3,487 nt of DNA from Escherichia coli (GTDB lineage: Bacteria > Pseudomonadota > Gammaproteobacteria > Enterobacterales > Enterobacteriaceae), in assembly GCF_003334335.1 (NCBI RefSeq), contig NZ_QOWQ01000084.1. One strand, given 5' to 3'. A program made the position numbers and the translations under genes. Positions 2,677-3,487 of this stretch are shown here, in pieces (positions within the stretch are counted from its first letter, which is position 1; the number at the start of each line of letters is the position of its first letter). The notes under the pieces are model-generated. The model was not told the DNA's origin. It saw only the letters and a program-made list of their open reading frames with translations, and did no database searches.

Positions 2677-2702
2677 GTTACAGGGGAGGGATTATCAGGA
2701 AT

Positions 2703-2736
2703 CGGCGGGGCAGAGCGACCCGCTGCGTTTGTTGTG
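2703..2736 (+). terminator. Candidate intrinsic terminator downstream of the small zinc-ribbon gene
   Basis: 7-bp GC-rich stem (2703-2709 pairing with 2719-2725, one G-U pair), 9-nt loop, then a T-rich but interrupted tail CGTTTGTTGTG. Confidence 0.3.
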
Positions 2737-2792
2737 CCAGACAGTAACGCACCGGCTCCCTGCAAAATGGTACCTGAATCAATCACAGTCAG

Positions 2793-2829
2793 GTATTCCG
2801 CCAATCCGTGATCGAATCGAGCGGAATAC
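2793..2829. repeat. Perfect 9-bp inverted repeat GTATTCCGC / GCGGAATAC with a 19-bp spacer containing a tandem ATCGA-ATCGA and a GATC site
   Basis: Read directly: 2793-2801 is the reverse complement of 2821-2829. Spacer is CAATCCGTGATCGAATCGA. Confidence 0.5.
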
Positions 2830-3487
2830 TCAGCCCCGACAAATACGAGTCCCCTTCAGAAGATACAGGCCGGTAATGCCTGAACGCCTGCCCCTCTGTA
2901 CACCATTCCCTTTTGATTTCGAATTCTTTGTTGCCGTTATACTGCTTAATGTTCCCGATCTTCCGGTGCACAGATAACACCGGAGTCATCGTAGCGCGGA
3001 TTCAAGATTCAGGTGACATATTTCCAGACGGAAGCCGGCACGCGATCGTAAAGTTTGTTCATTGTCAGTTCTGCCAGCCGGTGATCGACCGCAGAGTTAA
3101 AGGCTTCCAGCTCCGCAGGGGTAAGTTTATAACGTGTGTGGGAAATCACTTTTTCCAGCGTCTCCCGGGATGAACAACGACGGAACTGCTCTGGTTTTAA
3201 CTTCCATTCGTCTCTCGTTACTTTATGCTGTAATCAACGTGATACTGCCAGCATACCGCACCAGACTGACATTCTGGTACCCTCCCCAGACTCATTACTC
3301 CCGTGCAACCACTTAACCGGTCTCTCAGCAATATCGCCTTAACGCTACGTTTAGTTATCCGACACCGGATGTCCGATGCCATTGCGACAACCTGAAGGTA
3401 ACCAGCCAGTTGTAGTGGCACACTAAATTTGGCCACCTGATGAAAGGTGATATTCTCACCACAACACAAAACAGGTGACTTAATGAA

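What the first reader, a model, noticed from the sequence alone, without database searches (positions are those of the whole stretch)
2677..3482. About 800 bp without a convincing protein-coding gene
The computed ORFs here overlap each other on both strands, lack ATG plus RBS starts, or have unusual composition. The region holds several perfect inverted repeats (2793-2829, 2962-2984 and TATGCTG/CAGCATA at 3224-3255). That pattern suggests non-coding RNA, a regulatory or origin-like region, or decayed genes.
Basis: inference. Interest (0 to 1): 0.45.

Follow-up and report, generated by a model that had tools for sequence, protein, structure and literature searches.

The report
Dead hha paralogue plus IS debris
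This 800-bp "gene-less" stretch of an E. coli genomic island is ordinary decaying DNA: a frameshifted copy of the small regulator gene hha, a 72-bp relic of one insertion sequence, the end of another, and indel-ridden spacer.

Summary
The window is 100% identical to an E. coli chromosomal island with the gene order IS66, zinc-ribbon, YagK/YfjJ, hha, AlpA, YfjI, GTPase, Ag43. The content is explainable and mostly already annotated.

1. 3009-3207 (minus strand) is a pseudogene of the island-borne hha2/hha3 family. A 14-bp deletion after codon 6 frameshifts it. Intact 70-aa alleles exist in other strains.
2. 2761-2832 is a 72-bp miniature made of both termini of an ISSso4-like IS21-family element.
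3. 3411-3487 is the left end of a 1258-bp IS3-family element with a 3-bp target duplication.
4. The remaining DNA is spacer. It differs between island copies by indels that are mostly not multiples of three.

Short inverted repeats are no denser here than in the coding part of the window, and they are not conserved in homologous copies. Rfam gives no credible hit, and there are no DnaA boxes or iterons.

Residual function of the truncated Hha cannot be fully excluded, but the population data favour neutral decay. Interest is low.

The parts
2479..2676 (+). Context, just outside the finding. A 65-aa small ORF with two CxxC pairs and a C-terminal hydrophobic helix. PGAP annotates it as a hypothetical protein.
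   Evidence: Searches give the annotation in L001-L003. One search gives weak PHROG hits of unknown function (1e-5).
2677..2760 (.). Spacer downstream of the 65-aa ORF. It holds a weak hairpin followed by GUUUGUUGUG at about 2703-2735, which could be that ORF's terminator (inference).
   Evidence: conserved across copies but with two 6-nt indels; the window hairpin has z -0.6, and the type-B version in L006 has a 6-bp perfect stem with z -2.5.
2761..2832 (.). 72-bp miniature derivative of an IS21-family (ISSso4-like) element, TGCAAAATGG...GGAATACTCA. The two termini are fused and there is no istA or istB.
   Evidence: the left 38 nt are 82% identical to the left terminus of the IS in L175, and the right 34 nt are 94% identical to its right terminus. 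Searches show that IS (istA, istB, repeated GATGCCAATC..TGATCG motifs at both ends, TSD GGCGAA); the block is absent from type-B spacers; a 66-bp version occurs in plasmids.
2833..3008 (.). Non-coding spacer between the mini-element and the hha stop codon. It includes the hairpin 2962-2984, which sits at the junction of a roughly 65-bp indel, and a locally invariant block at 2901-2935.
   Evidence: indels of 4, 14, about 65 and 3 nt between copies; the 66-aa ORF 2789-2989 (minus strand) is present in only 26 of 79 related loci and reads through the mini-element; the hairpin is stable but has no U-tract.
3009..3207 (-). Pseudogene of the island-borne hha2/hha3 family (Hha/YmoA). The ancestral ATG is at 3207-3205. 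A 14-bp deletion (AAGACTGGCTGTAT) lies between 3189 and 3188. The Hha body is 3188-3012 and the stop is 3011-3009. From the ATG the frame now reads MEVKTRAVPSLFIPGDAGKSDFPHTL*.
   Evidence: Searches give the translations. One search aligns it with intact L006/L007. NF008191 at 97.5 bits. PF05321 at 3e-27. PGAP annotates 'hha ... incomplete, missing N-terminus' at 3009-3188.
3208..3407 (-). Former 5' region (leader and promoter, inferred) of the hha paralogue. It includes the 7-bp hairpin 3224-3255 and the in-frame TGA at 3236-3234.
   Evidence: homologous to the upstream region of intact alleles only as far as about 3311. The hairpin arms are mutated in L003 and L006; no consensus promoter; hairpin z is -1.1 (minus strand) and -0.4 (plus strand).
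3408..3410 (.). Target-site duplication (AGT) of the IS3-family insertion.
   Evidence: AGT flanks both ends of the IS in L001. The empty site in Nissle 1917 (L002) has it once.
3411..3487 (+). Left end of a 1258-bp IS3-family insertion sequence. The left inverted repeat is TGTAGTGGCACAC... and the transposase orfA ATG is at 3483. The window ends inside the element.
   Evidence: One search gives the boundaries (right terminus, read inward on the opposite strand, TGTAGTGGTCAAG). IS3 family transposase with programmed frameshift; the same 1258-bp unit occurs at 100% identity inside traK, trbD and other genes on many plasmids.

Best explanation
The interval is decaying, mostly non-functional DNA inside a CP4-57/CP4-44-like E. 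coli genomic island. It has four layers.

1. A horizontally acquired hha paralogue of the hha2/hha3 family on the minus strand. A 14-bp deletion after codon 6 killed it. The ribosome-binding site and ATG now lead into a 26-codon dead frame. The Hha-coding body is left open but has no start codon before a GTG at codon 29 of the open frame.
2. A 72-bp internally deleted relic of an IS21-family element, inserted in the spacer downstream of hha. It supplies the strongest inverted repeat.
3. A recent insertion of a 1258-bp IS3-family element 204 bp upstream of the old hha start. It cuts hha off from most of its upstream region.
4. Spacer between convergent genes that evolves by indels.

Shown: the homology, the deletion, the IS boundaries and the indel pattern. 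Inferred: that nothing here is currently functional.
For: Identity and context. The window is 100% identical to E. coli G1/2 and about 99.7% identical to Nissle 1917. Gene order there is IS66, zinc-ribbon, inovirus-Gp2/YagK-YfjJ, 65-aa ORF, hha (pseudo), AlpA-like HTH, YfjI, GTPase, Ag43.

Pseudogene:
- The conceptual 74-aa translation hits NCBIfam Hha at 97.5 bits against a cut-off of 90 and Pfam HHA at 3e-27.
- Intact 70-aa alleles (MEVKTKEDWLYQFRRCSS...) sit in the same context in L006, L007, L167, L168 and L170.
- The alignment shows a clean 14-bp gap in the window.
- The intact relative matches solved Hha structures 1JW2 and 4ICG at 2e-22.

Decay:
- L003 has also lost the ATG.
- Of 21 distinct bodies among 80 loci carrying the deletion, 4 have frameshifts or in-frame deletions.
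- Recent (1-2 nt) steps in the allele network give 7 non-synonymous to 5 synonymous changes, near the neutral 3:1 site ratio.
- An intact allele (SE15, L168) has a body identical to a deleted allele (L103). The synonymous-rich deep divergence was therefore inherited from functional alleles by recombination.

IS parts: IS3 family; IS21-family miniature.

Non-coding spacer: indels of 6, 6, 76, 4, 14, about 65 and 3 nt. No family hits for any ORF.

Literature: hha2 and hha3 are horizontally acquired hha paralogues linked to the flu-yeeR (Ag43) cluster (PMC4864382, PMC6480617). The published hha3 reverse primer matches the window exactly, and the hha2 primers match with 1-2 mismatches.
Against: - The Hha frame is still open for 74 codons.
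- The deleted allele is commoner than the intact one. About two-thirds of 2236 matching RefSeq records have it as their best copy.
- Over the whole allele network, non-synonymous changes are under-represented (N 22, S 36, P=2e-9).
- The 58-aa hha3 type, whose N-terminus is also remodelled, belongs to a gene reported to modulate one ag43 allele (PMC4864382).
- No expression data were available here.
Confidence: 0.85

Rival explanations
1. The frameshifted hha allele is still functional. A truncated Hha of 46-49 aa (from GTG 3149 or CTG 3158), or a 74-aa form from a non-canonical start, is made and still docks on H-NS to tune silencing of island genes such as ag43.
For: - The frame is open for 74 codons.
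- The DHRLAELT core and C-terminal helix are intact when compared with 1JW2.
- The deleted allele outnumbers the intact one.
- Overall there is a non-synonymous deficit among deleted alleles.
- Some strains carry an annotated 74-aa version whose first residue is M where the window frame has L (P0002, P0003); the underlying start codon was not examined.
- PGAP annotates 49-aa 'Hha/YmoA family' proteins at this allele in many genomes.
- hha3, which has a remodelled N-terminus, is reported to be active.
Against: - There is no ATG, GTG or TTG with a usable Shine-Dalgarno sequence before codon 29. GGAG lies 3 nt before the CTG and 12 nt before the GTG (sequence).
- A 46-49-aa product lacks the first 21-24 residues of the 70-aa protein, which align to the N-terminal third of Hha in 1JW2. 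From published Hha structures (my recollection, not tested here) that third holds helix 1 and part of helix 2.
- Bodies identical between intact and deleted alleles show that recombination explains the low deep dN/dS.
- Recent changes are about neutral, and 4 of 21 alleles carry further disabling indels.
- L003 has lost the ATG, and L003 and L005 each carry an in-frame stop just upstream of the deletion.
- In this window an IS3 element has cut away the upstream region.
Confidence: 0.1
2. The interval encodes a structured small RNA or cis-regulatory RNA built on the inverted repeats.
For: Tight hairpins fold better than shuffles: 2955-2992 at z -3.5 to -3.7, and 2761-2832 (minus strand) at z -3.3.
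Against: - Those windows were chosen because they contain the repeats.
- Larger windows have z between +0.8 and -2.4.
- There is no credible Rfam hit.
- Hairpin 2793-2829 lies inside an IS21-derived insert that is absent from type-B copies, and its left arm is not conserved in the plasmid version.
- Hairpin 2962-2984 exists only at an indel junction of type-A spacers.
- The arms of hairpin 3224-3255 are mutated without compensation in L003.
- No consensus promoter was found, and the only terminator-like site (minus strand, 2882-2866) is no more than the shuffles give.
Confidence: 0.04
3. An unannotated protein-coding gene lies in 2677-3008, for example the 66-aa ATG ORF on the minus strand or the 107-aa GTG ORF on the plus strand.
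For: The ORFs exist. The 66-aa ORF starts 20 nt after the hha stop.
Against: - No hits in NCBIfam or PHROGs.
- The 66-aa ORF's ATG is missing in 51 of 79 related loci, and its C-terminal third is translated IS21 terminus.
- Indels that are not multiples of three run through both ORFs.
- There is no Shine-Dalgarno sequence.
Confidence: 0.01

Closest known systems
hha2 (EC042_4516) and hha3 (EC042_4796) of enteroaggregative E. coli 042, horizontally acquired Hha paralogues (Prieto et al. 2016, PMC4864382; PMC6480617)
   Same: Same gene family and the same island type, near Ag43/flu. The hha3 reverse primer matches the window exactly, and the hha2 primers match with 1-2 mismatches. The retained 59 codons (QFRRCSS...VT, from the deletion junction to the stop) are identical to an intact 70-aa allele (L170) and differ by 1-2 residues from the other intact alleles.
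   Different: The window copy carries a 14-bp deletion after codon 6 and has no usable start, so it is a pseudogene. The hha3 forward primer does not match. L004, not the window, is the true hha3 type.
Core Hha / YmoA / YdgT (Cnu) nucleoid-associated H-NS co-regulators (Pfam PF05321; PDB 1JW2, 4ICG, 2K5S, 2JQT)
   Same: Clear sequence membership of the coding remnant.
   Different: It is not next to tomB and is island-borne. The best matches in other species' representative genomes are only 60-69% identical. The gene is frameshifted.
IS3-family insertion sequences
   Same: TG...CA termini with imperfect inverted repeats, a 3-bp target duplication, a two-ORF transposase with programmed frameshift, and a length of 1258 bp.
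   Different: Nothing unusual. The specific IS name is not given in the annotations that were seen.
IS21-family elements (ISSso4-like) and bacterial MITEs
   Same: The 72-bp block carries both termini of an ISSso4-like element, including its repeated terminal motif. It sits as an insertion relative to an empty site.
   Different: There is no istA or istB. It occurs at only 1-4 copies per genome. The flanking repeat is imperfect (TCCC/GCCCC). Mobilisation was not shown.

Membership tests
Hha/YmoA family (PF05321; NCBIfam NF008191) | Sequence match to the family profile above the curated threshold | tested here: met
   NF008191 scores 97.5 bits against a cut-off of 90, over profile positions 14-71 of 72. 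PF05321 gives 3.2e-27 over positions 3-57 of 57.
Hha/YmoA family (PF05321; NCBIfam NF008191) | Complete ORF of about 67-72 aa with its own start codon and ribosome-binding site | tested here: not met
   A 14-bp deletion separates the ATG at 3207 from the Hha frame. There is no ATG, GTG or TTG in frame before 3149. It is therefore filed as a pseudogene of the family, not as a functional member.
Hha/YmoA family (PF05321; NCBIfam NF008191) | Binding to the H-NS N-terminal domain | not testable with these tools
   Only the conserved DHRLAELTMNKLYD segment could be compared, through the alignment of the intact relative to 1JW2 and 4ICG.
hha2/hha3 island paralogues of E. coli | Near-identity to EC042_4516 or EC042_4796, judged by the published specific primers | tested here: inconclusive
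   hha3-R has 0 mismatches, hha2-F has 1 and hha2-R has 2. hha3-F has no match within 4 mismatches. The window is in the same family but is neither 042 allele.
hha2/hha3 island paralogues of E. coli | Location in a horizontally acquired island linked to flu (Ag43)/yeeR | tested here: met
   The Nissle locus L002 has agn43 about 5.9 kb beyond the hha remnant. IS elements flank the region. Compare PMC6480617.
IS3 family insertion sequence | Terminal inverted repeats ending TG...CA, a 3-4-bp target duplication, orfA/orfB with a programmed frameshift, and occurrence as a discrete unit elsewhere | tested here: met
IS21-family-derived miniature element | Both termini of a known IS21-family element, abutted, with no transposase genes | tested here: met
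   82% identity over 38 nt to the left terminus and 94% over 34 nt to the right terminus of the ISSso4-like element in L175. The IS architecture is shown.
IS21-family-derived miniature element | Target-site duplication and evidence of transposition to unrelated sites | tested here: inconclusive
   The flanks are TCCC | GCCCC, against a single ATCCCC at the empty site. A 66-bp relative lies in an unrelated plasmid intergenic region. Copy number is only 1-4 per genome.
Any Rfam RNA family | Covariance-model score at or above the gathering threshold | tested here: not met
   The only hit is to a human lncRNA model at 17.2 bits against 48, E 0.33. The Nissle locus gives the same result.
Replication origin | DnaA boxes or iterons together with an AT-rich unwinding element | tested here: not met
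   No TTATNCACA sites, no tandem repeats, only two-copy direct repeats of 7-12 nt, and GC of 0.48-0.56.

The most novel reading that the evidence does not exclude
The 14-bp-deleted hha allele is the majority form in sequenced E. coli. It may not be dead. It could be expressed as an N-terminally truncated or re-started mini-Hha that still engages H-NS, giving a naturally occurring variant of the Hha co-silencer. A separate, smaller possibility is that the 72-bp IS21-derived unit is a mobilisable MITE of a family for which I know of no described MITEs (my recollection; the literature search was not decisive).
Probability: 0.1. Interest if true: 0.35.

Novelty: already known. Interest (0 to 1): 0.12.

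Why it matters
It matters little in itself. It is a worked example of how an apparently gene-less stretch with hairpins in an E. coli island resolves into a pseudogene plus IS debris.

There is one practical point, which is an inference. The published hha2/hha3 PCR primers, proposed as virulence indicators, all anneal 3' of the 14-bp deletion. They therefore cannot distinguish intact alleles from frameshifted ones. In complete RefSeq genomes the frameshifted allele appears to be the commoner of the two. Annotation is also inconsistent: the same allele is called an 'hha pseudogene' in some genomes and a 49-aa 'Hha/YmoA family protein' in others.

Tried and rejected
- Rfam at a permissive E-value, on the window and on the uninterrupted Nissle locus. 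Only a chance hit.
- NCBIfam and PHROGs on every ORF of the interval. Nothing except Hha.
- Exact-pattern scan of one genome per species for the invariant 26-mer of the spacer. No hits.
- The search for related loci with the intact paralogue in genome contigs. It returned only Hha relatives at 60-69% identity in other genera (not examined further), so there was no cross-species material for covariation analysis.
- Viral-contig scan for the deletion junction. No hits.
- The locally invariant block 2901-2935 as a promoter (TTGATT, 19 nt, TATACT on the plus strand, antisense to hha). The spacing is too long, the scan tool does not call it, and 35 invariant columns at about 10% divergence is not compelling. 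It is left as a note.
- Low dN/dS among deleted alleles as evidence of function. Rejected once an intact allele with an identical body was found.
- The 91-bp hairpin block as a high-copy repeat. It occurs only 1-4 times per genome, and it was then explained as IS21 termini.
- A literature search for IS21-derived MITEs. Not decisive.

Full report
**Where the window comes from.**
- Megablast of 2400-3487 finds 100% identity over the full length in several E. coli chromosomes, for example strain G1/2.
- Identity is about 99.7% up to position 3411 in many others, including Nissle 1917.
- RefSeq annotation of G1/2 (L001; window x = locus x - 3601) and Nissle (L002) gives this order: IS66 copies, two zinc-ribbon genes, an inovirus-Gp2/YagK-YfjJ gene, a 65-aa hypothetical ORF, 'hha ... 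incomplete, missing N-terminus', an AlpA-like HTH gene, a hypothetical gene, YfjI, a GTPase, and in Nissle agn43. In G1/2 an IS3-family transposase follows the hha remnant.
- This is a CP4-57/CP4-44-like genomic island.

**Checking the observation.**
- The ORF listing confirms a tangle of overlapping ORFs of at least 30 aa on both strands in 2677-3482. All start with GTG or TTG except one ATG ORF without a Shine-Dalgarno sequence.
- They are not remarkable. There are four perfect repeats of at least 7 nt, against 1.3 in dinucleotide shuffles (P=0.04). The coding remainder of the window has 3.3 per 806 bp.
- A 9-nt arm turns up in 9% of shuffles.
- GC content is 0.48-0.56, which is not unusual.

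**The centre is a dead hha paralogue.**
- On the minus strand, 3233-3009 is an open 74-codon frame. It scores 97.5 bits against NCBIfam 'hemolysin expression modulator Hha' (cut-off 90) and 3e-27 against Pfam HHA.
- A protein search finds intact 70-aa relatives beginning MEVKTKEDWLYQFRRCSS... (P0005, P0006, P0010).
- Their loci (L006, L007, and later L167, L168, L170) have the same neighbours as the window.
- Alignment shows that the window has ATGGAAGTTAAAACCAGAG|CAGTTCCGT where intact genes have ATGGAAGTTAAAACCAAAGAAGACTGGCTGTATCAGTTCCGT. This is a clean 14-bp deletion between window positions 3189 and 3188.
- From the retained ATG (3207-3205) the frame now reads MEVKTRAVPSLFIPGDAGKSDFPHTL*.
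- The Hha frame has no ATG, GTG or TTG until the GTG at 3149.
- The intact relative aligns to solved Hha structures (1JW2, 4ICG) at 2e-22.

**Is the remnant still under selection?** The open frame and the abundance of the allele made this worth testing.
- In RefSeq complete genomes, about two-thirds of 2236 matching records have the deleted form as their best copy. These show as 116-nt matches in the 80-90% identity band.
- A junction-specific pattern recovered 75 metagenomic loci.
- Adding the window and the four E. coli genome loci already held that carry the deletion (L001-L003, L005) gives 80 copies and 21 distinct bodies. Four of these have frameshifts or in-frame deletions. Several others change conserved residues, for example DHRLAELT to DHWLAELT.
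- Over a minimum-spanning network, non-synonymous changes are under-represented (22 N to 36 S, P=2e-9). On the short, recent edges the ratio is 7 N to 5 S, close to neutral.
- The intact allele of strain SE15 (L168) has a body identical to a deleted allele (L103). The deletion and the body are therefore shuffled by recombination among island copies. The synonymous-rich deep divergence was inherited from functional alleles.
- L003 has additionally lost the ATG. L003 and L005 have in-frame stops just upstream of the deletion.
- I conclude pseudogene, with about 10% left for residual function.

**Link to the literature.**
- Prieto et al. described hha2 and hha3 as horizontally acquired paralogues associated with virulent lineages and with Ag43 (PMC4864382).
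- A follow-up paper linked them to the flu-yeeR cluster (PMC6480617).
- Their hha3 reverse primer matches the window exactly. The hha2 primers match with 1-2 mismatches, and the hha3 forward primer does not match. L004, whose gene product is the 58-aa P0114 form, matches both hha3 primers.
- All four primers lie 3' of the deletion.

**The best inverted repeat is IS21 debris.**
- Aligning the spacer between the 65-aa ORF and hha across six loci shows two haplotypes. They differ by indels of 6, 6, 76, 4, 14, about 65 and 3 nt.
- The 76-nt alignment gap, present in the window, contains the 2771-2795 and 2793-2829 repeats.
- Its right 34 nt recur at about 94% identity in hundreds of plasmids.
- In one plasmid (L175) this sequence lies just after istB of an ISSso4-like IS21-family element. 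That element's two ends carry the family's typical repeated motifs and are flanked by GGCGAA on each side.
- The window block 2761-2832 matches the left terminus over 38 nt (82%) and the right terminus over 34 nt (94%). It is a 72-bp miniature with both ends and no genes.
- The flanking repeat is imperfect, so mobility is unproven.

**The other two hairpins.**
- 2962-2984 sits exactly at the junction of the roughly 65-bp indel and exists only in type-A spacers. It is stable (-14 to -17 kcal/mol) but has no U-tract.
- 3224-3255 lies in the old hha leader. Its arms are mutated without compensation in L003, and its z-score is -1.1 on the minus strand and -0.4 on the plus strand.

**The right edge is an IS3-family element.**
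- Comparison of G1/2 with Nissle places a 1258-bp insertion starting at window 3411. Its termini, each read inward, are TGTAGTGGCACAC and TGTAGTGGTCAAG, with an AGT duplication at 3408-3410.
- The same unit occurs at 100% identity inside tra genes on many plasmids.

**No hidden gene, RNA family or origin.**
- The 66-aa ATG ORF is present in only 26 of 79 related loci and reads through the IS21 relic.
- No ORF hits NCBIfam or PHROGs.
- Rfam gives only a chance hit.
- There are no DnaA boxes or tandem repeats.
- The promoter and terminator scans found no more sites than their shuffles give.

**Verdict.** Of its interpretations only 'decayed genes' holds. Everything important is already annotated or belongs to well-known kinds, so interest is low.

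Noticed in passing
window 2761-2832; L173:2499-2566; L175:395-3033: A 72-bp unit made of both termini of an ISSso4-like IS21-family element sits in the island spacer. A 66-bp relative sits in an unrelated intergenic site in 63 plasmids (79.5% identity in the five listed). It may be a MITE-like derivative of an IS family for which I know of no described MITEs.
   Followed up: partly
window 2901-2935: A 35-bp stretch (CACCATTCCCTTTTGATTTCGAATTCTTTGTTG...) is invariant in all six aligned island copies, although the surrounding spacer is full of indels. It contains TTGATT, 19 nt, then TATACT on the plus strand, which would point antisense into hha. Statistically this is weak.
   Followed up: partly
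L004:3344-3520 (hha3 type, strain OkiPb01676): The 58-aa hha3-type gene loses homology with the other alleles exactly at GGAGACGC, about 15 codons into the Hha body, and has an unrelated N-terminus (MAARNTSGDAGKVN...). An 88-aa hypothetical gene lies upstream. This is a second, independent remodelling of the N-terminus in this family.
   Followed up: no
L176:1-120 (GCA_029848235.1); protein P0013: In another strain the right end of the same IS3-family element abuts AGCAGTTCCG, exactly at the 14-bp-deletion junction of the hha pseudogene. This creates an annotated 74-aa fusion ORF (MFTVKPWPVLLDHYK-QFRRCSS...). It is a second, independent insertion of this IS into the same small region.
   Followed up: partly
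RefSeq annotations of L001/L002 versus L003/L005: The same frameshifted allele is annotated as an 'hha pseudogene, missing N-terminus' in some genomes. In others it is an intact 49-aa 'Hha/YmoA family nucleoid-associated regulatory protein', which implies a CTG start at the equivalent of window 3158.
   Followed up: partly
window 2479-2676 (+): A 65-aa ORF with two CxxC pairs and a C-terminal hydrophobic helix is conserved next to the YagK/YfjJ gene in all island copies. It has weak PHROG hits of unknown function (1e-5). It is frameshifted in L004 and was not called in L006.
   Followed up: no
L002:6790-7706 (Nissle 1917): In islands without the IS3 insertion, about 900 bp between the hha remnant and the AlpA-like gene carry no annotated gene. 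Rfam finds nothing there.
   Followed up: partly
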